DNA from: Planctomycetota bacterium
GTDB lineage: Bacteria; Planctomycetota; UBA1135
DNA: 64,000 nucleotides
NCBI GenBank assembly: GCA_026421205.1
Contig: JAPKBM010000008.1
Span: 4,055-68,054, forward strand
Reading direction: 5' to 3'
Within the stretch, counting starts at the first letter, position 1; every line of letters begins with the position of its first letter. Below the pieces are notes generated by a model. That model was not told the DNA's origin and did no database searches. It saw only the letters and a program-made list of their open reading frames with translations. The translations under genes and the position numbers were made by a program. Of this stretch, positions 3,648-62,222 are shown piece after piece.

Positions 3648-5066
3648 TTATTCTTCTTCCGGTGCATCCACATCGGAAACGGCGGACTCCTCCACAGCAA
3701 CTTCTGTCGATTCACCTTCCAAAGCCTCCACCACAGCAGCCAGGACTTTTTCCGATGCAGGTCGTGGTCGGATGTGCGCGAAGTAGGGCATTTCTTGCTT
3801 GTCATAGACTACATTTCCTTCAACCACCGACCACTGGACAAAAGTGCGGTAGTCAAAGAGATCCCCATCACAAATAATGAAGTCTGCGTCTTTGCCTGGT
3901 TCAAGGGAGCCCAGCCGATCTTCCAGGCCAAGAATTTTGGCGGCGTCCAAAGTCACCGAACGTAAAGCGGCCTTCTGAGAAAGCCCACCCCGAATAGCAA
4001 AAGCAGCTTCCATCGGCAAAGTCAACAAGTCACGCCCGGCAATGCCTCCTGTGGAGATGCTCTTTTGTGAAGGAAGAATGGCAAATTCCACACCGGCTGC
4101 CCAAAGTTTCTGCGCATTTTCAATGCTCCAACCACTGGGCCGATTCAAACGGTCGTCGGCATATTGCTTTGCGCGCGGTGTCAAAACCATTCGTGCATTC
4201 ACACGTCCCAGTCTTCCCGCGCATGCCCACGCTTCACGGCCACCGAAAATAACTGACTGCATCGGGAACTCCTCCAGTAAGTCACAAATCCCTAATAGGT
4301 CTTTCAAGCTGTTCGCTGCAAAACGAGCAGTGGCCTCGCCACGCAATAAACGAAGATGATCCGAATTCACCCCCTTGGCCTCTGGTTCCTCTCCTACATC
4401 ACTTTTTATCTGTTTGTCCCTCTCCCATGCGCGCACGGCACGAATCAAATCGCGGGCCTTTGAAAAACTGTTGCGCAAACTCCGGCGTGACGCGGGAGAA
4501 GTGGAAGTCCAATTCAACTTCACCCAAGGAGATGTGGTCAGCAGCATACCGTCCAAAGAGCCGCGCGTTAACTTGGCCACGGCGTTAGAGCCATGCACGG
4601 TTGTCAAGCCCCCGGCTAAGCCCAAATCCAGCGTTAAGGAAAAAGGGTCAAAGCCGTCTCGTGCGCTGGCCCCCGACCCGCGTAGAAATCCGCTGGAATC
4701 TACGGCAATCAAACCTGGATAGACTCGCATACCGGTGGCGTCAATGATGCGGGCACCCTTCGGAATCCGCACGCGTTTTCCGACCTTCATGATTCGCCCG
4801 TTTTTCGCCAAGAGGGCTCCGCGCGCAATCATGCCATCAGTCACGGTGTAAATGTCTCCACCGACCACGGCCAAATACGGGCTCTCTTTCGGCGGAGCGA
4901 CTTCAGTGCTTTCCTCCGTCTCTACGATTTCCTCCACGGCCGCATCGGTGTCATCCGCCGAAGGCTCCGGGCTATCTTGAGCCGTAAGCCAAGGAGTTAA
5001 AAACAACAGGAAAAGAGCCGTCCACAAAAAGGAGGGCGTCGGGAGTAATTTTTTAAAATGGTTCAT
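3648..5066 (-). CDS. secreted amidohydrolase-fold paralog 9 of 9 (HxH motif lost)
   Basis: Signal-like N-terminus FLWTALFLLFLTPWLTAQ. It has NGRIMKVG...YPGLIAVDSSG where HxH is expected, and the C-terminal GSLEPGKDADFIICDGDLFD strand. ATGA overlap with the upstream gene. Confidence 0.75.
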   Translation of the reverse strand: MNHFKKLLPTPSFLWTALFLLFLTPWLTAQDSPEPSADDTDAAVEEIVETEESTEVAPPKESPYLAVVGGDIYTVTDGMIARGALLAKNGRIMKVGKRVRIPKGARIIDATGMRVYPGLIAVDSSGFLRGSGASARDGFDPFSLTLDLGLAGGLTTVHGSNAVAKLTRGSLDGMLLTTSPWVKLNWTSTSPASRRSLRNSFSKARDLIRAVRAWERDKQIKSDVGEEPEAKGVNSDHLRLLRGEATARFAANSLKDLLGICDLLEEFPMQSVIFGGREAWACAGRLGRVNARMVLTPRAKQYADDRLNRPSGWSIENAQKLWAAGVEFAILPSQKSISTGGIAGRDLLTLPMEAAFAIRGGLSQKAALRSVTLDAAKILGLEDRLGSLEPGKDADFIICDGDLFDYRTFVQWSVVEGNVVYDKQEMPYFAHIRPRPASEKVLAAVVEALEGESTEVAVEESAVSDVDAPEEE

Positions 5067-6421
5067 CGTCCTTCCTCCTGTTCTTCGAGTTCTCGGTCGT
5101 ACACCGTTTTGCCATCCTCCACGACAAGAACGACTTCGGCAAGCGGGTCCAAGGGATCTCCGCTGACGAAAATAAAGTTGGCTGCCATACCCACAACCAA
5201 GGGGCCGACCACTTCTTCTTGACCCATGGATGCGGCTGGTTCAATAGTCATGGACTTTAAGGCGATGGTCTTGTCGAGCCCCTCTCGTACCAAGTCCGCC
5301 ACGCCAACACGCCAGGAACTTAAACCGGACACGCCAGAGGAAGACGGTCGTAGGACCAACTTCTCAAGACCTGCATCCACGAGTTCTGCAGCCAGGTTGA
5401 TGTGGATTCGTGTATAGCGCGTCTGCATTGCCAACCGTGCGGGCAAGTCAATCCGTACACCCGCGGAAGCCAACTCTTCCACCACTTCGTGAAAATTGTG
5501 GCTGCTTGTGTGAGAGAGCACCAACTCCCAAGGCAGTTCACGATCTTTCAAGATGTCATTCCAGTGCACCCATTCCGCGGCATCACTGAGCCAAATTTGT
5601 GCCACCCGTTCTTTTCGAACCCAATCGACAACCGGGCTGAGCTGGGAATCAATCTTGGGCGCGGTGAATTCCTTGGGAGGCTCTTTCTCTTCTTCTTTCT
5701 GCTCTTTGTCGTTTTCCTTGGCAGCCGACGCAGAACCCTCTTTTTTTGGAGCTTCCTTTTTGGAAGCCTCTTTTTTCTCAGCCTCTGCTTTCGTTTTTTG
5801 TTTCTCAGCCCAATCTTTCCGGGCTTGTTCCCAATCCACTTTGGCCTTCTCCTCTTTTTTGATGGCCGCGTCTGCATCTTTCAAGCCATTTCGGAGAAGG
5901 TCTTTGGCACTGCGATTAGAATCTAGCGTAAGTTTCAGATGTAAATCCTGCACCACTGCTTCGGGAACCGGGGCATGTGCCGTCATACGAATTACCGACG
6001 TTCGCCCAGGGATTCCAGTACCCGGAGGGTCAATCCCTGCAAGCAACACACCATGGGACAAATAATCCTTCAGCAACTCGTTGTCAGCTAACCAAACGGT
6101 GTCTATGCCGACGTACTTTCCATTCCGACCTCGACCTCGCGTGGCACCCTGGAATGCCGATGCATGAGAAACTGTAAATGGCGGCATCACCGTCCAGCCT
6201 TGTCCACGGAAGTCTTTCACCACAGCACCATCTGGAATGATCACGGTCTTCCCGATGCGTTCAATCACACCGTCTCTTACTAAGATGACCGCTTTTTTCA
6301 AAGCGTCTCCATCTAAAGTCTCCACATGGTCCACACGGTAAGCCGTCAAACGGCCCAGGGGCTCTCGCTCTGTTTCTTGTGCAAAAACAGGGAGGACAAA
6401 AAGGAAAAGAGGTGCAATCAT
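5063..6421 (-). CDS. secreted amidohydrolase-fold paralog 8 of 9 (HxH lost; K/E-rich insert)
   Basis: Signal MIAPLFLFVLPVFAQE, then DGVIERIG, C-terminal VGMAANFIFVSGDPLDP, and a ~70-aa Lys/Glu-rich insert (KKEEKAKVDWEQARKDWAEKQK...). It starts 1 nt after the upstream stop. Confidence 0.7.
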   Translation of the reverse strand: MIAPLFLFVLPVFAQETEREPLGRLTAYRVDHVETLDGDALKKAVILVRDGVIERIGKTVIIPDGAVVKDFRGQGWTVMPPFTVSHASAFQGATRGRGRNGKYVGIDTVWLADNELLKDYLSHGVLLAGIDPPGTGIPGRTSVIRMTAHAPVPEAVVQDLHLKLTLDSNRSAKDLLRNGLKDADAAIKKEEKAKVDWEQARKDWAEKQKTKAEAEKKEASKKEAPKKEGSASAAKENDKEQKEEEKEPPKEFTAPKIDSQLSPVVDWVRKERVAQIWLSDAAEWVHWNDILKDRELPWELVLSHTSSHNFHEVVEELASAGVRIDLPARLAMQTRYTRIHINLAAELVDAGLEKLVLRPSSSGVSGLSSWRVGVADLVREGLDKTIALKSMTIEPAASMGQEEVVGPLVVGMAANFIFVSGDPLDPLAEVVLVVEDGKTVYDRELEEQEEGR

Positions 6422-56689: not shown

Positions 56690-57495
56690 TTGACCGCCTC
56701 GTCCTTCAAGCGCTGATTGAGATTTTTATCCTCACAGCAGGGATTTATGGAATCCTCCGCTTTCTCCGAAACACGCGAGGCTTCGGCCTTGTTCGTGGAC
56801 TCGTCACCTTCATTGTGGTTGGCGCATTTTTCTTCGGTGTGCTTTCTCGCTACCCAGAAGTCCCTGTCCTCCAAAAGATCCTTTCTGAAATCTTGCCCTT
56901 CTTGGTCATGATTGTGGTAATTCTTTTCCAACCCGAACTTCGTCAAGGGATTTCAAAAATTGGCCGGTCTGGAATTTTCGGTCTCTTCAGCGCAACCACA
57001 ACGGATGAAGAAACGCTCTCTAAAATTGCCACCGCGGCCATCCGCATGAGCAAAGAGCGCATCGGCGCTCTCATTGCTTTTGAACGCTCTGTGTCTCTTG
57101 CCCCCTTCCGAGAAAACGCTGCAATTCTGGAAGCTCCCGTTTCTACCACTCTTTTAGAAAACATCTTCTTCCCCGGTGGTCCTCTCCATGATGGTGCAGT
57201 GATTATCCGCGGCGACACCATCTTGGCAGCCGCATGTATTTTTCCACTCACCACCGACCCCACCGTCCAACGAAGACTAGGCACACGCCACCGCGCAGCA
57301 CGAGGCCTTTCAGAAGAGACCGATGCCATCACGCTGGTCGTGAGTGAAGAAACGGGCCACATTTCCCTGGCCGCCGGACGTCAACTCACCCAAGCCGTGC
57401 CTCACGACCAAGTAGAGCAAAAGCTTCGTGAACTACTTCAATCCGAAAAACCACGCGCCGAAGAAGCGTTGATAACCCAGGAAACCGACGTATGA
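56686..57495 (+). CDS. cdaA: diadenylate cyclase CdaA
   Basis: ATG 56686 (MIDRLVLQALIEIFIL) with an ATGA overlap on folP. Three TM segments precede the DAC domain motifs GALIAFER, PLHDGAVIIRGD and GTRHRAARGLSEETDAITLVVSEETG. Confidence 0.88.
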   Translation: MIDRLVLQALIEIFILTAGIYGILRFLRNTRGFGLVRGLVTFIVVGAFFFGVLSRYPEVPVLQKILSEILPFLVMIVVILFQPELRQGISKIGRSGIFGLFSATTTDEETLSKIATAAIRMSKERIGALIAFERSVSLAPFRENAAILEAPVSTTLLENIFFPGGPLHDGAVIIRGDTILAAACIFPLTTDPTVQRRLGTRHRAARGLSEETDAITLVVSEETGHISLAAGRQLTQAVPHDQVEQKLRELLQSEKPRAEEALITQETDV

Positions 57496-58631
57496 ATTGG
57501 CTCCGCCGCCTTTTCTTTCATGATATGGGCCGAAAGATTTTGGCTTTAGCGCTCGCCGCCTTCGCTTGGTGGCAAGTCGGGCAATCAGTCGCCGAAGACC
57601 GCACTCATAATTTCACCGTCGTCACAGTAAACCATTCTCAAACCCCCGCTGCTCACAGTTTACAAATCAAAATTCCGGACGGATGGGAACTCGTTTCACC
57701 GGAACCGGGAACTTCCGTAACTATCGCCTTCCATGGCGCTGCAGCCAACCTTGCTGCCTTTTTTGCAAGTCAATGCGCAGCAACTTTTGAACCTATCCTT
57801 GATGCAACTTCTGGAGAAACTACAAAAACGGTAGATCTTCTCTCTTTGGATGAATTGGACTGGCTCAAGCCATCGGAGGCCAGCCGGCTCCTCAAAGATC
57901 TTGGCTCGCAGTCCTTTCGCAACTTTCGCTTTGAACGCCGACGGGAAGCCACCCTTGCGCTGAATCCCACACTTGTCACCGTCCAAGGAAATCCAGCGGA
58001 CGCTTACGAGGTCCACCAAGAAAATATACTTTTTGACCCGACACAGGTTCGCATTTCTGGTCCACACGCTGCCGTCGAAGAGGCGCTTGGCCGCTTGGAA
58101 TCGTTACGCCTAGGCTTTCCTGGAGCGGGGATTTTTACACCGGTAGAAATTCCCGACAACCGACGAGACACTCTCAAAGCTATTGTTCGCCTCACCGACT
58201 CCCTGACACGCCGCGGTGTTCGTATGTTCCCCCCACAAATTGCCGTTCGAGTCCCCATCCGCCACCAAAAAGGTGAGCCAATCACGTGGGTGCTTTCGGC
58301 AGGGCAACTCCACGGCGTCGGGAAAGCATCCGAAGGAGAATGGGCACTTGGCACTTGGTCCGCCACGCCATGGCTTGCGGAACTCACGGACTCCACTCTC
58401 CTTGGCGTACAATTCGATGAAAGCTGGGTGCGGGAACACATTTTATTGCTTGTACCGCTCTCTCAAATCCCTGCCGGTGCGGTGGATGGATTTGAGCTTG
58501 CCATCGGGTGGCATCTCGTCGGTATTGATAACGACAGCCTCCGCCAGCAACTTCTTCAATCTTTGCGCGTTCGCCCACAAAATGAAGAAGATCGCATGGT
58601 CTCCATGAAACTTCTCGGAGAGCAGCCTTGA
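57492..58631 (+). CDS. cdaR: CdaR/YbbR-like regulator of CdaA
   Basis: ATGA coupling to cdaA. An N-terminal membrane anchor (ILALALAAFAWWQV) is followed by repeated beta-rich YbbR-like segments. The position matches the conserved cdaA-cdaR-glmM order. Confidence 0.6.
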   Translation: MNWLRRLFFHDMGRKILALALAAFAWWQVGQSVAEDRTHNFTVVTVNHSQTPAAHSLQIKIPDGWELVSPEPGTSVTIAFHGAAANLAAFFASQCAATFEPILDATSGETTKTVDLLSLDELDWLKPSEASRLLKDLGSQSFRNFRFERRREATLALNPTLVTVQGNPADAYEVHQENILFDPTQVRISGPHAAVEEALGRLESLRLGFPGAGIFTPVEIPDNRRDTLKAIVRLTDSLTRRGVRMFPPQIAVRVPIRHQKGEPITWVLSAGQLHGVGKASEGEWALGTWSATPWLAELTDSTLLGVQFDESWVREHILLLVPLSQIPAGAVDGFELAIGWHLVGIDNDSLRQQLLQSLRVRPQNEEDRMVSMKLLGEQP

Positions 58632-59983
58632 CCCACGCACTTTTCGGCACCGACGGAATGCGAGGCCGCGCAGGAGAAGAACCTCTTACGGCAACCACTT
58701 TAGAGCGCCTCGGACAAGTTCTTGCCGCGCAACTGTGCACCGGCTCCGTCCTCATTGGCCATGATGGCCGTGAAAGCGGAGAAACTTTGGTTGCCGCTTT
58801 GGCGGCCGGCCTTTCTCATGGGGGAATCCATGTTGACATTCTTGGCCTTGCCACAACCCCATGCATTGCTTACCTCACCATGGCTGGCGAATATGCCGCT
58901 GGAATTGTGGTTTCTGCATCGCACAACCCAGCACCCGACAATGGCGTCAAACTTTTAGGAGCCACGGGTGCGAAACTTGATAGCGCCACGGAACAAACTC
59001 TAGAAGGGCATCTCCAAAACGACATGGACTTCCCCCCAGCAGAAACACCTGGGGAACAACGACGTGTTAAGGGCCTCGTTGGAGATTACATTGCGTGGTT
59101 GCGTAACGATGCATTCCCTGAACTAGATTTTGGTGGCGCCAAAGTGGCCTTAGACTGCGCCCATGGAGCCGCAAGTCAAATTGGTTCCCGCATATTAAAA
59201 GCCTTCGGCGCGGAGGCGGTCATCCTTCACGACAAGCCCGACGGCCGCAACATCAATGACCAAGCAGGTGCACTTTACCCAGAAAAGCTAGCAGGCTTTG
59301 CGCAAGAGCACCAATGCGCCCTTGGCATTTCTTTAGACGGTGACGCAGACCGTGGCATCCTTGTGGATGGAGATGGTCGAGTCTTGGACGGCGACGCCAT
59401 CCTTGCGGGTATGGCCTTAGCTTTGGCCGAACAAAAAGGGTTGAAAACGGTCGTGGCAACAGTGATGAGCAATCTTGCTTTAGAGCAAACACTCCAAGCT
59501 GTTGGCATTCATCTTCTGCGCACACCCGTCGGCGACCGCCACGTGGCCGCCGCCATGAAGAAGCAAGATTACTCCTTAGGCGGAGAAAAATCGGGCCATA
59601 TCCTCTTCGGCAAGGAGCATGGCTATCGCGGTGACGGCATTTACACCCTCTTGCGGATTGCCGATACCCTTTGGCGCTCCGGTGCCCGAGGTCCGGCATT
59701 CGCGGCGGCGGCCAAAAAATTCGCGGCGGATTATGAAGACCTTCCTCAGGAACTTCGTAACTTGCCTGCCACCAAGCGCGTCCCCCTTGAAGAATTACTG
59801 TGCCTACAAGAAGCCCTTCAATCCGCCGACGCCCTCCTTGCGGGCCAAGGCCGAACCGTAGTGCGCTTCTCGGGCACTGAGCTCAAACTACGCCTGATGG
59901 TGGAAGCGGTGGATCAAGATCTGGTCACTAAGGCCCTTGATATCTTAGAGATCGGTGCACAACAAGATGGCGTCCTTGCCTGA
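58628..59983 (+). CDS. glmM: phosphoglucosamine mutase
   Basis: TTG start overlaps the cdaR stop. Motifs are LFGTDGMRG, VVSASHNPAPDNGVK, SLDGDADR and GGEKSGH. Confidence 0.9.
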   Translation: MTHALFGTDGMRGRAGEEPLTATTLERLGQVLAAQLCTGSVLIGHDGRESGETLVAALAAGLSHGGIHVDILGLATTPCIAYLTMAGEYAAGIVVSASHNPAPDNGVKLLGATGAKLDSATEQTLEGHLQNDMDFPPAETPGEQRRVKGLVGDYIAWLRNDAFPELDFGGAKVALDCAHGAASQIGSRILKAFGAEAVILHDKPDGRNINDQAGALYPEKLAGFAQEHQCALGISLDGDADRGILVDGDGRVLDGDAILAGMALALAEQKGLKTVVATVMSNLALEQTLQAVGIHLLRTPVGDRHVAAAMKKQDYSLGGEKSGHILFGKEHGYRGDGIYTLLRIADTLWRSGARGPAFAAAAKKFAADYEDLPQELRNLPATKRVPLEELLCLQEALQSADALLAGQGRTVVRFSGTELKLRLMVEAVDQDLVTKALDILEIGAQQDGVLA

Positions 59984-60599
59984 TTCCCCCACACTGTTAG
60001 CCATCGAACTTTCCGGATCGGCCTCCACGGTAGCTTTGCTTCACAATGGAACCGTACACCAGCAAGATTTCACTGCGGCGCGTGGTAAAGCCCTCATGCC
60101 CGCAATCCAAGACCTCCTTCACGACAATGCAACAAAAGAAGATTTGCAGGGCATTCTCGTCGGAACGGGCCCAGGCTCTTACACCGGACTACGCATTGCT
60201 TGTGCAGCAGGAATCACCCTGGGTTACGCCTTAGAAATCCCTGTTCTTGGGTATGGAAGTTTTGAAACCTTTGCTTTTTCTTATTTGAAAGAAAATAAGA
60301 TTTCAAAAGAACTCCATCTTTTCCTCGACGCATTTCGCAAAGAAACTTATCACGCTTCGTTTCGTCTTCAACAAGGAAAGCTACAACGTGTGACCGCCCC
60401 AGAAGTACTTCCTCAAGAAGAATCCATCTGTTCTTTGTCCACAAGCGCCCTCTATCTCGAGGATCCCACCGTATTTCAGCCAGAAGCAAAACATCAATTC
60501 TCCTATCACCTTGCACACTTTTTCGGCCAAGATCTATGGGACACCGCAAAAAAATTCCCGCCATCACCTCTCTATCTTCGGCCTCCCGCGTACGCATAA
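59967..60599 (+). CDS. tsaB: tRNA threonylcarbamoyladenosine biosynthesis protein TsaB
   Basis: ATG at 59967. Motifs are LLAIELSGSASTVAL and ILVGTGPGSYTGLRIACAAGITLGYALEIP. Confidence 0.75.
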   Translation: MASLPDSPTLLAIELSGSASTVALLHNGTVHQQDFTAARGKALMPAIQDLLHDNATKEDLQGILVGTGPGSYTGLRIACAAGITLGYALEIPVLGYGSFETFAFSYLKENKISKELHLFLDAFRKETYHASFRLQQGKLQRVTAPEVLPQEESICSLSTSALYLEDPTVFQPEAKHQFSYHLAHFFGQDLWDTAKKFPPSPLYLRPPAYA

Positions 60600-60629
60600 A
60601 AAAACGGCGCACTCCGAAGAGCGCGCCGT
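60598..60629 (-). terminator. rho-independent terminator of the histone-like gene
   Basis: The 11-bp GC-rich stem (60604-60614 with 60619-60629, one mismatch) has loop cgaa. On the minus strand it is followed by a run of seven T (60598-60604). Confidence 0.65.
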
Positions 60630-60646
60630 GACCGAATCCGAATAGA

Positions 60647-60961
60647 TTACAGATCTTGTGGGCGAAGAGTCTTGCGACCGTTCTGAGTTGCCCGAGCTTC
60701 TGCCTTCATGATGGCATCACGGACATAACCGTCCAATGCGGTGTAGAAATCACCGGAAACGTTACAAGCTTCTACAGCACCTTTGGTGCGAGACTTGGAG
60801 ATGATGAGGCTTGCGACTGCACCTTTCTTACCACGCTTGGTGGTCTTCTTCGCCGTGCGCTTGGTAGCCTTCTTGGCAGTCTTCTTGGTGGTACGCTTGA
60901 TAGCCTTCTTGGCGGTCTTGCGAGTCACCTTTTTTTTCGTTGCTTTTTTCTTAGCAGCCAT
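60647..60961 (-). CDS. Lys-rich N-terminal tail fused to a bacterial histone-fold (DUF1931-like) domain, 104 aa
   Basis: Residues 1-47 are MAAKKKATKKKVTRKTAKKAIKRTTKKTAKKATKRTAKKTTKRGKKG (H1/Hc1-like). Residues 48-104, LIISKSRTKGAVEACNVSGDFYTALDGYVRDAIMKAEARATQNGRKTLRPQDL, match the pattern of bacterial singlet histones and end in GRKT...D(L/I). The gene has its own terminator. Confidence 0.7.
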   Translation of the reverse strand: MAAKKKATKKKVTRKTAKKAIKRTTKKTAKKATKRTAKKTTKRGKKGAVASLIISKSRTKGAVEACNVSGDFYTALDGYVRDAIMKAEARATQNGRKTLRPQDL

Positions 60962-61133
60962 GTTTTTATTTGGGTTGGTCGCCGGGAAAAACCCGACTGA
61001 GAATGAGTGAACATGTAAGAAGGGGACCTAATCACATGATTGGAGCGCAATTCTGCCGTTTCCAGACCAAAGTTACCAATGGAAAGGCAAAAAATTTCTA
61101 AGTATTTCAAAAAGTCCATTTTATGATGCACCC

Positions 61134-62222
61134 ATGTTTGCGCCACTCATCTTGGCATCCTTCCTTTTTTTTCCTCAAAACCCTTCAGCAGAAGAGTGGA
61201 AAAAAGTGCATGGCCGTCTTATTCAATTTTCGAAAGAAGAACAGCAGGGATTTTTAGCCCTTACTTTAGAAAAAGTTCACACCTTAGATCATCCCTTAGC
61301 TAGGGCTGCAAAAGATCTTTCGGAACAAGCGAAAGCCCTTTCAAAAGTCTCCCCACGGGACCCAGCTTGGTTTGACCCAAAAGAATATGCACCAGCGCTC
61401 AAACTTAAAACAAAAATCTATCTGCCCAACTCAGGAGGCTGGAAACGCCTTAAAAAGGCCTTTTACGGCAAAAACGACCTCCCTTCCCAGCTGCAACCTC
61501 TTCACTGGGATTACGGAAGAAACGCGATCGAACGGCCGTCAGCATGGGAAGAGCCCTCAACCGTAGACTCTATGAGACAACTATGGAACGGGCTCATTCC
61601 TCACGCCGATGTCCTGCGCGCCACGTTGGAATCCATCTTGGATGACCAGAAAACCATGGATCTCGTGGCGGACTATTTCAGCCATTGTTACCGTGACCGC
61701 AACGGAAAAGTTTACCCCGGAATCACACTTGGCGATCTCTGGGGATCCGGCGAGGAGCTCGAAGTTTCCGACGCAGAATCCGTGGCTTTCATGCGAAGAA
61801 TTCTCCAAGATGACGCTATTCAGTCCCCCATTCCAAAGCGTTTGCACCCCGGAATCTACTCTATCATCCGAGACACCTATGCCGAATGGCGTGATTATTA
61901 TCAAATCCGCGCCACTTTATCCCTTTGTTTCCTTGACCCACACGCCGAAATCCCCCTCATCTTCGCCAACGTTGCGAACCACTTTCACCGCGCTTGGATT
62001 TCCGTCGATCATCAACCGGATGCCATGCGGATACTCCTGAAAAAACATGGGAATCGCCAGGCCTTTCTTACAGAGATGGAGGCACGCAAGCCGACTACGC
62101 CGGAACAGCAGGAAGAACTTCAGCTAAAAGAGGAGCAACGAAAGTCTTTCCGCATTCTTGTGCAACAGACAACACGGGAAAGCCTGCGGGAGCTTGGCCT
62201 ATTGGGCATGCGTTTGCGGTAA
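61134..62222 (+). CDS. hypothetical secreted protein (362 aa)
   Basis: ATG start with signal-like MFAPLILASFLFFPQNPSA. No family recognised. Confidence 0.5.
   Translation: MFAPLILASFLFFPQNPSAEEWKKVHGRLIQFSKEEQQGFLALTLEKVHTLDHPLARAAKDLSEQAKALSKVSPRDPAWFDPKEYAPALKLKTKIYLPNSGGWKRLKKAFYGKNDLPSQLQPLHWDYGRNAIERPSAWEEPSTVDSMRQLWNGLIPHADVLRATLESILDDQKTMDLVADYFSHCYRDRNGKVYPGITLGDLWGSGEELEVSDAESVAFMRRILQDDAIQSPIPKRLHPGIYSIIRDTYAEWRDYYQIRATLSLCFLDPHAEIPLIFANVANHFHRAWISVDHQPDAMRILLKKHGNRQAFLTEMEARKPTTPEQQEELQLKEEQRKSFRILVQQTTRESLRELGLLGMRLR

What the first reader, a model, noticed from the sequence alone, without database searches (positions are those of the whole stretch)
60647..60961. Bacterial histone-fold protein carrying a eukaryote-like or Hc1-like lysine-rich N-terminal tail
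The 57-residue C-terminal half (LIISKSRTKGAVEACNVSGDFYTALDGYVRDAIMKAEARATQNGRKTLRPQDL) fits my recollection of the bacterial singlet histone/DUF1931 pattern, the family that includes the Bdellovibrio nucleoid histone. That pattern is a short beta/helix start, an N-(V/T)-S turn, a long central helix and a terminal GRKT(V/L)...D(I/L). It is preceded by a 47-residue tail that is about half Lys/Arg, with a repeating (T/A)KK(A/T)xKR unit like linker histone H1 or chlamydial Hc1. The gene is monocistronic, with an AT-rich upstream region and a strong terminator, which is consistent with an abundant nucleoid protein. A histone fold plus a basic tail in a bacterium would bear on how bacterial histones bind and compact DNA.
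Basis: partly seen in the sequence, partly recalled or inferred. Interest (0 to 1): 0.7.

Follow-up and report, generated by a model that had tools for sequence, protein, structure and literature searches.

The report
Tailed face-to-face bacterial histone gene
This gene encodes a small bacterial histone of the already catalogued "face-to-face" type, carrying a long, disordered, lysine-rich tail; it is a real and well-conserved chromatin protein, but one of a kind that surveys have already described.

Summary
Window 60647..60961 (- strand) is a real 104-aa gene. Residues 1-51 form a disordered tail of Lys, Ala, Thr and Arg with net charge +24. Residues 52-104 form a truncated-alpha3 histone fold.

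Profile and structure comparisons place the fold with face-to-face (FtF) histones, not the Bdellovibrio HBb subgroup or Pfam DUF1931. The closest are HTkC (9F2C: hmmsearch 3e-10, hhalign 98%, TM 0.73, rmsd 1.8 A) and HLp (9QT0). Every FtF tetramer-interface and RD-clamp residue is present and invariant in the aligned homologues: R90, N94, R96, T98, D103, and the C-terminus at L104.

The gene is monocistronic, with a 41% GC upstream region and a strong terminator. Its neighbourhood (glmM-tsaB on one side, orf362-alr on the other) is conserved across Planctomycetota/Saltatorellota-like genomes. At that same locus the tail ranges from absent to about 60 residues.

It most likely forms a tetramer that wraps about 60 bp of DNA, as HLp does, while four basic tails neutralise or condense DNA. 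This is inferred, not shown.

Schwab et al. 2024 already reported FtF histones in Planctomycetota and said bacterial FtF histones commonly carry positively charged tails. This is therefore a new member of a known kind, of moderate interest because no long-tailed member has been studied experimentally.

The parts
60647..60961 (-). Complete CDS (104 aa plus stop) of a tailed FtF-type alpha3 histone
   Evidence: ORF list. 488 homologous proteins and 553 genome loci. Only one copy in the window by hmmsearch of all six frames.
60809..60961 (-). N-terminal tail, residues 1-51: disordered, Lys/Ala/Thr/Arg-rich, net charge +24
   Evidence: Composition. AF2 pLDDT is 42-61 over the first 50 residues with no secondary structure. 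Tails of 120 homologues have median length 43 aa and median K+R 46%; pooled composition is K 39%, A 27%, T 8%, R 6%, P 5%.
60834..60919 (-). Degenerate tandem repeat in the tail-coding DNA (period 12/24/36 nt = 4/8/12 aa, units such as TAKKAxKR)
   Evidence: TRF scores 50-119. Near-identical homologues P0001 and P0002 differ from the window by in-frame changes and indels in this region.
60650..60808 (-). Histone-fold domain, residues 52-104 (alpha1 56-65, L1, alpha2 70-93, L2, one-turn alpha3 101-103)
   Evidence: AF2 secondary structure. Foldseek of the domain-only model: HTkC 9f2c TM 0.73, rmsd 1.8 A; HLp 9qt1 TM 0.68; HBb 8cmp TM 0.76. Domain-only profile against PDB: HTkC 3.3e-10, HLp 3.1e-5.
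60767..60796 (-). alpha1 with the invariant SKSRTK DNA-contact stretch (K56, S57, R58, K60)
   Evidence: Invariant columns in alignments A1 and A2. Through the hmmsearch/hhalign alignments they align with HLp DNA-contact residues A13, S14, K15 and K17.
60650..60694 (-). FtF signature at the C-terminus: R90-x3-N94-x-R96-K97-T98-x4-D103-L104-stop
   Evidence: Same spacing as the FtF HMM positions R48/N52/R54/T56/D61, as HLp R49/N53/R55/D62/F63 and as HTkC R45. All five are invariant in 44 homologues. HBb has S and D at the R90 and N94 positions.
60597..60629 (-). Intrinsic terminator (11-bp stem, 8 GC pairs, 4-nt loop, T7), placed between the convergent histone and tsaB genes
   Evidence: Scan. 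Analogous hairpin plus T-run follows the stop in most of the 18 orthologous loci listed, with different sequences.
60962..61133 (-). Upstream intergenic region (41% GC), presumed promoter and 5' UTR. Contains a small hairpin at 60981..60997 followed by an A/C-rich leader.
   Evidence: GC content. No sigma-70 consensus match. A 5-7 bp hairpin about 15-25 nt before the start codon recurs in many orthologues with different sequences.

Best explanation
The gene encodes a nucleoid-associated histone of the face-to-face (FtF) subgroup of alpha3-truncated prokaryotic histones, extended by a 51-residue intrinsically disordered tail whose composition resembles histone H1.

**Shown here**
- The fold.
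- The subgroup signature.
- The disorder and composition of the tail.
- Vertical conservation at a fixed chromosomal locus.

**Inferred from the solved homologues HLp and HTkC**
- Two handshake dimers close into a toroidal homotetramer. R90 would contact the free C-terminal carboxylate (L104) of the opposite dimer, and N94 would contact R96.
- DNA of about 60 bp wraps around the ring. It would contact the alpha1 N-terminus (K56-S57-R58, K60), loop L1 (V68, G70) and loop L2 (K97, T98).

**Inferred from composition**
- The four tails project from the alpha1 ends beside the DNA path.
- They add about +96 charge per tetramer, about +108 with the core, against -120 for 60 bp.
- They therefore neutralise wrapped and linker DNA, raise affinity, and may link neighbouring particles, much as the H1 C-terminal domain, Hc1 or the mycobacterial HupB tail do.

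**Tail evolution**
- The tail evolves by repeat expansion and contraction.
- Its length, from 0 to about 60 aa at the same locus in related genomes, would tune how strongly the nucleoid is compacted.
For: **Fold**
- AF2 gives alpha1 56-65, alpha2 70-93 and a one-turn alpha3.
- The best Foldseek matches are HTkC, then HLp, then HBb, followed by other histone-fold proteins.

**Subgroup**
- hmmsearch against PDB: HTkC 3.3e-10, HLp 3.1e-5, HMfB 0.59, and no HBb match at E<=10.
- hhalign probabilities: 98% HTkC, 94% HLp, 49% HBb.
- R90, N94, R96, T98 and D103 are invariant in 44 homologues. They have the FtF spacing and correspond to HLp R49/N53/R55/D62.
- R90 corresponds to HTkC R45, whose salt bridges to the opposing dimer's C-terminal carboxyl group stabilise the crystal tetramer and whose R45A mutant was HBb-like.
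- All 120 homologues listed end one residue after the Asp.
- A whole-library profile search recovers tail-less 55-56 aa forms with the same signature.

**DNA contacts**
- HLp contact positions align with conserved K56, S57, R58, K60, G70, K97 and T98.

**Tail**
- Composition and disorder.
- Tandem repeat in the DNA.
- Present in all 120 closest homologues, at 12-60 aa.

**Housekeeping, vertically inherited gene**
- Flanked by glmM-tsaB and orf362-alr in 46-56 of 80 genome loci, even where GlmM identity is only 38-44%.

**Expression hints**
- Monocistronic layout; the terminator recurs in most and the 5' hairpin in many of the orthologues checked.
- Skewed codon choice: AAG 18 of 24 Lys codons against 42% in other genes of the window; GGT 6 of 6 Gly codons against 24%.
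Against: - No multimer prediction or experiment was possible, so the tetramer rests on conserved residues only.
- Loop L1 is 2 residues shorter than in HLp and 4 shorter than in HTkC. This could alter DNA contacts.
- The position aligned with HLp K21 is E64 here.
- Four long polycationic tails could change the binding mode (bridging or coating instead of wrapping) or hinder ring closure.
- No expression or proteomic data exist for this organism. No sigma-70-like promoter was found.
- No Pfam or NCBIfam model reaches its cut-off.
- Foldseek E-values are weak (0.006-0.2) because the domain is tiny.
Confidence: 0.72

Rival explanations
1. The tail, not the histone fold, is the main DNA-binding and condensing module, as in Hc1/Hc2 or the H1 C-terminal domain. 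The histone fold mainly supplies oligomerisation. A tetramer would display four polycationic arms that bridge duplexes or drive condensate-like compaction, rather than forming discrete wrapped particles.
For: - The tail carries +24 of the +27 net charge per chain.
- Its pooled composition (K 39%, A 27%, T 8%, P 5%) resembles the H1 C-terminal domain (the H1 composition is from general knowledge).
- 5 of 44 family members weakly match Pfam HC2 (best E 4.9e-5).
- Hu et al. could not exclude bridging by HLp in vivo.
Against: - The fold's DNA-contact residues (K56, R58, K60, K97, T98) are invariant or nearly so, which implies selection on core-DNA contacts.
- Tail-less orthologues persist at the same locus (L028) and in other phyla, so the core works without a tail.
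- HTkC showed no bridging activity in vitro.
Confidence: 0.2
2. It acts like HBb/Bd0055. It is an obligate dimer that bends or coats DNA rather than forming a toroidal tetramer, and the FtF-like residues serve only intramolecular stability.
For: - The AF2 domain model superposes on HBb as well as on FtF histones by TM-score (0.76 against 0.73).
- An RKT motif with Lys, as in bacterial dimers and nucleosomal histones, is present.
- The tetramer was not tested.
Against: - R90 and N94 are invariant here and are the residues that bacterial dimer histones lack.
- The family profile does not find HBb at E<=10, while it finds HTkC at 3e-10.
- hhalign gives 49% for HBb against 94-98% for the FtF histones.
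- The R45A mutant of HTkC, changed at the equivalent Arg, is described as highly reminiscent of HBb, so keeping the Arg argues for a tetramer.
Confidence: 0.07
3. It has a non-chromatin role. The histone fold would serve as a protein-protein or RNA-binding module, for example a transcription-factor subunit of the NF-Y type or a ribosome/RNA chaperone with a basic tail.
For: - Histone folds occur in transcription factors, and NF-Y and TAF chains appear among the lower Foldseek matches.
- Basic disordered tails are also typical of ribosomal proteins (general knowledge).
Against: - The nearest relatives by sequence and structure are DNA-wrapping histones.
- No partner histone-fold gene exists in the window.
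- The RD clamp and the L1/L2 DNA-contact positions are conserved.
Confidence: 0.03

Closest known systems
HLp of Leptospira perolatii (PDB 9QT0/9QT1/9QT2), a bacterial FtF histone (Hu et al. 2025, PMC12701072)
   Same: - Singlet alpha3-truncated histone fold.
- Tetramer residues R49/N53/R55, the RD clamp R55-D62 and a C-terminus one residue after the Asp all have identical counterparts here: R90/N94/R96, D103 and L104.
- DNA-contact positions are largely conserved.
- hhalign 94%, E 1e-7.
   Different: - HLp is 63 aa, and only its first 6-7 N-terminal residues are unresolved in the crystals. This protein has a 51-residue tail of +24.
- L1 is 2 residues shorter here.
- RKT here against RTT in HLp.
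- About 30% identity.
- Different genomic context: HLp sits next to smc and map, whereas this gene sits between glmM-tsaB and alr.
HTkC of Thermococcus kodakarensis (PDB 9F2C), an archaeal FtF histone (Schwab et al. 2024 and the 2025 preprint)
   Same: - Best sequence and structure match: hmmsearch 3.3e-10, hhalign 98%, TM 0.73, rmsd 1.8 A, 37% identity.
- The Arg equivalent to R45 is conserved.
- The NVSxxFYxAL and GRKTL motifs are shared.
   Different: - HTkC is archaeal and has no tail.
- Its L1 is 4 residues longer.
- It has Glu at the N94 position, and His replaces the clamp Asp.
HBb/Bd0055 of Bdellovibrio bacteriovorus, a bacterial dimer histone (PDB 8FVX, 8CMP)
   Same: - The same alpha3-truncated superfamily.
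- RKT motif and RD clamp.
- Similar monomer fold (TM 0.76).
   Different: - HBb lacks the Arg and Asn of the tetramer interface, having S and D instead. It is a strict dimer that bends DNA.
- It has no long tail.
- It is only marginally similar in sequence: hhalign 49%, and no profile hit.
Lysine/alanine-rich DNA-condensing tails: H1 C-terminal domain, chlamydial Hc1/Hc2, the mycobacterial HupB C-terminal tail, and Asgard or eukaryotic core-histone N-tails
   Same: - A disordered K/A/T/P-rich low-complexity segment with short repeats and no acidic residues.
- Fused to a folded DNA-binding domain, as the HU fold is in HupB (general knowledge).
- Some family members weakly match Pfam HC2.
   Different: - The resemblance is compositional only, with no demonstrable homology. 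The window protein itself does not match HC2.
- There is no winged-helix globular domain as in H1.
- Unlike eukaryotic core-histone tails, the tail sequence is not conserved. It varies by indels even between near-identical strains.

Membership tests
alpha3-truncated prokaryotic histones (Schwab et al. 2024) | Histone fold alpha1-L1-alpha2-L2-alpha3 | tested here: met
   AF2 helices at 56-65, 70-93 and 101-103. All 50 listed Foldseek matches to the domain-only model are histone-fold proteins.
alpha3-truncated prokaryotic histones (Schwab et al. 2024) | alpha3 reduced to 3-4 residues, and a shortened alpha2 | tested here: met
   The chain ends at L104, one residue after D103. alpha3 is one turn. 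All 120 homologues listed end at the same position.
alpha3-truncated prokaryotic histones (Schwab et al. 2024) | RxTxxxxD motif (RD clamp plus L2 Thr) | tested here: met
   R96, T98 and D103 are invariant in 44 sequences.
Face-to-face (FtF) histones | Conserved Arg six residues before the clamp Arg (HMM R48, HTkC R45, HLp R49), which bonds to the opposing dimer (its C-terminal carboxyl group in HTkC and D4GZE0) | tested here: met
   R90 is invariant.
Face-to-face (FtF) histones | Conserved Asn two residues before the clamp Arg (HMM N52, HLp N53) | tested here: met
   N94 is invariant. Definition.
Face-to-face (FtF) histones | Closer in sequence to FtF members than to bacterial dimer or nucleosomal histones | tested here: met
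   PDB profile search: HTkC 3.3e-10, HLp 3.1e-5, HMfB 0.59, HBb absent. hhalign: 98%, 94% and 49%.
Face-to-face (FtF) histones | Toroidal homotetramer of two facing dimers (the feature that defines the group) | not testable with these tools
   Only monomer prediction was available. This needs AlphaFold-Multimer or AF3, or SEC-MALS or a crystal structure.
Bacterial dimer histones (HBb/Bd0055 group) | Absence of the R48/N52 tetramerisation residues, and sequence clustering with HBb | tested here: not met
   This protein has R90 and N94; HBb has S and D at those positions. HBb is not found by the family profile.
Pfam DUF1931 (PF09123) pseudodimeric histones (Aq_328, TTHA type) | Match to PF09123 above the gathering score, and a doublet (two-fold) architecture | tested here: not met
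   The window protein has no PF09123 match at E<=10. 5 of 44 relatives match at E<=1, best E 0.003. This is a singlet fold of 53 residues. The literature places DUF1931 in a separate cluster.
Linker-histone or Hc1/Hc2-type proteins | Homology to the H1 winged-helix globular domain or to the Hc1/Hc2 families | tested here: not met
   The window protein has no H1 or HC2 Pfam match. Weak HC2 matches occur in 5 of 44 relatives and are attributable to composition.
Eukaryote-like core-histone tails | Conserved tail sequence that is a target of regulatory modification | tested here: not met
   Only the first residues (MAAKKK / MAARKK) are conserved. The rest varies by indels, repeats and length, from 0 to 60 aa. 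Modification itself cannot be tested here.

The most novel reading that the evidence does not exclude
In this Planctomycetota/Saltatorellota-like lineage the FtF histone may have become a combined 'core plus linker' histone.

- The repeat-driven tail would set the degree of charge neutralisation and particle-to-particle contact. It is 0 to about 60 residues long at one syntenic locus, giving up to about +108 charge per tetramer against -120 for about 60 bp.
- Tail length would then be an evolvable dial for nucleoid compaction.
- The tail might also be regulated by lysine acetylation. That would make it a bacterial counterpart of eukaryotic tail-based chromatin regulation that arose independently.
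Probability: 0.15. Interest if true: 0.7.

Novelty: new member of a known kind. Interest (0 to 1): 0.4.

Why it matters
Bacterial histones are a young field. In the literature read here, only HBb and HLp are described as structurally and functionally characterised, and neither has a long tail.

This locus gives a clean, sequence-defined example of an FtF histone with a 51-residue tail of H1-like composition. It comes with three things that make the role of tails directly testable:
- A natural tail-length series, from none to about 60 aa, on a nearly invariant core at one syntenic locus.
- Tail-less close relatives in other phyla.
- A cultured organism, Rohdeia mirabilis Pla163, that carries a tailed orthologue.

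The existence of such proteins is not new, however. Published surveys already list FtF histones in Planctomycetota and note that bacterial FtF histones commonly have positively charged tails.

Tried and rejected
- **Pfam and NCBIfam on the single protein.** Nothing reached a cut-off. CBFD_NFYB_HMF gave E 0.094, and the SAA and PNPase matches are noise. Family-wide Pfam gave only scattered weak DUF1931, CBFD and HC2 matches.
- **phmmer against PDB.** The single sequence gave only a marginal HTkC match (E 0.006). A family profile was needed.
- **Foldseek on the full-length model.** The full-length AF2 model gave poor superpositions (rmsd about 9.6 A). A domain-only model fixed this (rmsd 1.8 A).
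- **Promoter.** The sigma-70 scan found nothing upstream.
- **Source genome.** It is not among the 80 GTDB species-representative loci returned (best domain identity 84%). Identical copies occur only on metagenome contigs.
- **HBb-type membership.** Considered and rejected.
- **Mis-called start.** I considered that the tail might come from a wrong start codon. Rejected, because the MAAKKK / MAARKK N-terminus and in-frame basic tails are conserved in all 120 homologues listed.
- **Antisense ORF.** The ORF at 60656..61000 (+) was dismissed as a mirror image of the Lys-rich frame.
- **Second copy.** No second histone copy exists in the window.
- **Prior work.** Literature searches found no dedicated study of tailed Planctomycetota histones. 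The Saltatorellota description does not mention histones or nucleoids.

Full report
**What is there.**
- Residues 1-51 (MAAKKKATKKKVTRKTAKKAIKRTTKKTAKKATKRTAKKTTKRGKKGAVAS) contain 20 Lys, 4 Arg, 10 Ala, 10 Thr and no acidic residue, for a net charge of +24.
- Residues 52-104 have a net charge of +3.
- The tail-coding DNA is a degenerate tandem repeat with periods of 12, 24 and 36 nt over 60834-60919.
- The gene stands alone. tsaB (59955..60599, +) converges on it and a 362-codon ORF (61134..62222, +) diverges from it.
- The 172-bp upstream spacer is 41% GC against 53% for the window.
- An 11-bp, GC-rich hairpin followed by T7 lies 18 nt after the stop.

All elements of the observation are therefore confirmed. 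The only corrections are that the quoted C-terminal string is 53 residues rather than 57, and that the strand is minus.

**It is a real, widespread gene.**
- The protein has 488 relatives at E<=1e-3 in the 5.8-billion-protein collection. The best matches are 99% and 93% identical and differ mainly by in-frame changes in the tail. Most named ones come from Planctomycetota MAGs, and JGI labels some 'histone H3/H4'.
- A scan of GTDB species genomes found 553 loci.
- Identical copies occur on metagenome contigs with the same neighbours.
- The core is extremely conserved: IISKSRTK..A...NVSGDFY.AL..VR..I..AE.RA..NGRKTLRPQDL, with 23 invariant columns in 44 sequences.

**It is a histone fold.**
- No curated Pfam or NCBIfam model reaches threshold.
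- A family profile finds the solved histones HTkC (9F2C, 3.3e-10) and HLp (9QT0, 3.1e-5). It then finds HmvA and HMfB weakly.
- hhalign gives 98% for HTkC, 94% for HLp and 49% for HBb.
- AlphaFold2 predicts alpha1 56-65, a long alpha2 70-93 (pLDDT about 90) and a single-turn alpha3, with the tail disordered.
- Foldseek of the domain model returns histone-fold proteins in all 50 listed matches. HTkC comes first (TM 0.73, rmsd 1.8 A), then HLp, then HBb.

**Which histone family.** Schwab et al. 2024 divide alpha3-truncated histones into several groups. Two matter here: face-to-face (FtF) histones, which form toroidal tetramers, and bacterial dimer histones (HBb).
- The FtF profile is marked by R48, N52, R54, T56 and D61. 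Bacterial dimers lack R48 and N52.
- In HLp the equivalent residues R49, N53 and R55 build the dimer-dimer hydrogen-bond network. R55-D62 is the RD clamp, and the chain ends at F63.
- The window protein has R90-x3-N94-x-R96-K-T98-x4-D103-L104-stop. This is the same spacing, all residues are invariant in the aligned family, and the C-terminus always lies one residue after the Asp.
- HBb, whose sequence I verified against 8FVX and 8CMP, has Ser and Asp at the two interface positions.
- HLp's DNA-contact positions are A13, S14, K15, K17, T27, G29, T56 and T57. They align with K56, S57, R58, K60, V68, G70, K97 and T98. HLp K21 aligns with the variable E64.

I therefore file it as an FtF-type alpha3 histone. 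It is not an HBb-type histone and not a Pfam DUF1931 pseudodimer. The defining tetramer itself could not be tested here.

**The tail across the family.**
- In the 120 closest homologues the tail is always present, at 12-60 aa with a median of 43. Median K+R is 46%, and pooled composition is K 39%, A 27%, T 8%, R 6%, P 5%. This resembles the H1 C-terminal domain and Hc1/Hc2 in composition only.
- A profile search of 1.84 billion cluster representatives found 863 clusters at E<=1e-3 and 130 at E<=1e-10. These include tail-less 55-56 aa forms, among them very acidic ones that look haloarchaeal, and tandem doublets of 114-130 aa.
- Among GTDB genomes, orthologues from Krumholzibacteriota and several from Eisenbacteria and 'Fibrobacteraceae'-labelled MAGs are tail-less (MADLIISK...). 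Methylomirabilota have about 8 extra residues.
- Within the clade that shares the window's synteny, tail length runs continuously from 3 residues (MAG UBA1135, L028: 'MSD') to about 60, with net charge from -1 to +28.

The tail is thus a lineage-specific, fast-evolving, repeat-driven appendage on a nearly frozen core.

**Genomic context and origin.**
- The arrangement orf379-glmM-tsaB (convergent), histone, orf362-alr (divergent) recurs in 46-56 of the 80 retrieved genome loci. It holds even where GlmM is only 38-44% identical, for example in Rohdeia mirabilis Pla163.
- The wider window holds housekeeping genes such as ftsH, folP and a thiolase.
- This points to a vertically inherited chromosomal gene, not a mobile one.
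- Related loci include MAG UBA1135 and Rohdeia. The Saltatorellota description places both within the OM190 / UBA1135 / UBA8108 radiation next to Planctomycetes.
- The window's own species is not among the 80 GTDB species-representative loci returned.

**Mechanism (inferred).** By homology with HLp, which wraps about 60 bp around a rigid tetramer and reorganises the E. coli nucleoid, and with HTkC, the protein most likely forms a toroidal tetramer that wraps DNA.
- The tails emerge just before alpha1, next to the 'paired ends of helices' DNA contact.
- With about +27 per chain, a tetramer carries about +108 against -120 for 60 bp. The tails could therefore almost fully neutralise the wrapped DNA, reach linker DNA, or bridge particles.
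- Hints of high expression are indirect. The gene is monocistronic, and most orthologues checked have a terminator hairpin followed by a T-run after the stop. A small 5'-UTR hairpin followed by an A/C-rich leader recurs in many orthologues with different sequences. Codon use is skewed.

**Comparison with the literature and novelty.**
- Hocher et al. 2023 noted the persistence of histone genes in Planctomycetota and said most bacterial singlets lack long tails.
- Schwab et al. 2024 state that bacterial FtF histones occur predominantly in Spirochaetota, Planctomycetota, Bdellovibrionota and Myxococcota. They also state that tails are common on them, with no conserved sequence but mostly positive charge. 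Their source data list bacterial FtF lengths up to 108 aa in the portion read.
- Hu et al. 2025 characterised HLp, in whose crystals only the first 6-7 N-terminal residues were unresolved. They reported only Leptospira among cultured carriers of bacterial FtF histones. The Rohdeia mirabilis orthologue found here (84 aa, 32-residue tail) adds a cultured organism with a tailed version.
- I found no study devoted to these long-tailed Planctomycetota histones.

The finding is therefore a new member of a known, recently described kind. It is correct and well supported, but not surprising to a specialist. Its value lies in the experimental handle it offers on what tails do for a bacterial histone.

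**Verdict.** Observation confirmed. Interpretation supported, with the subfamily corrected to FtF. Novelty: new member of a known kind. Interest 0.4.

Noticed in passing
window 60981..60997 (-), and upstream of the orthologues in L001-L019: A 5-7 bp hairpin about 15-25 nt upstream of the start codon, followed by an A/C-rich unstructured leader. It recurs in many orthologous loci with different stem sequences (for example GUCGGG/CCCGGC, AAACCGG/CCGGUUU, GUCGGU/ACCGAC). It may be a 5'-UTR stabiliser or translation element. No Shine-Dalgarno-like sequence is evident.
   Followed up: partly
L028 (Planctomycetes bacterium UBA1135) 5001-5168, and L001-L080 generally: At the same syntenic locus the histone tail varies from none (56-aa protein starting MSDLIISK) to about 60 residues, with net tail charge from -1 to +28. 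This forms a natural tail-length series on an almost invariant core.
   Followed up: yes
Proteins P0143, P0152, P0156, P0162, P0164, P0167, P0178, P0193 (114-130 aa) from the representative search: Tandem doublets of this FtF-like domain, each half carrying the R...N.RKT....D signature. These are possible covalent pseudodimers, distinct from Pfam DUF1931. P0158 and P0203 carry C-terminal extensions that would remove the free carboxylate used at the tetramer interface.
   Followed up: no
L076 (Rohdeia mirabilis Pla163, NZ_CP036290.1) about 4971-5225: A cultured strain encodes an 84-aa tailed orthologue (MAKKKAKKKVTRRAAKKVTRRPAARKKTSAADFIISKSRTK...). Hu et al. 2025 listed only Leptospira species as cultured carriers of bacterial FtF histones.
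   Followed up: partly
window 61134..62222 (+) and 57492..58631 (+): Two conserved hypothetical genes (362 and 379 aa) with no Pfam match. They are syntenic with the histone gene in about 30 related genomes at 25-40% identity. The 362-aa gene is the divergent neighbour and shares the AT-rich spacer.
   Followed up: partly
Proteins P0003, P0009, P0012, P0025, P0027, P0028 and others: Many database entries for homologues carry spurious non-basic N-terminal extensions of 25-50 residues from upstream start codons. The conserved start is MAAKKK or MAARKK. Lengths in public tables therefore overstate tail length for some entries.
   Followed up: partly
window 60656..61000 (+): A 114-codon antisense ORF rich in Leu, Phe and Gly overlaps the histone gene. 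It is the mirror reading of the Lys/Ala/Thr codons and has no independent support.
   Followed up: partly
window 60597..60629: The terminator hairpin sits between the convergent histone and tsaB genes. It has a T-run only on the histone (-) strand and an A-run on the other side, so it would terminate the histone transcript efficiently but tsaB only weakly, if at all.
   Followed up: no
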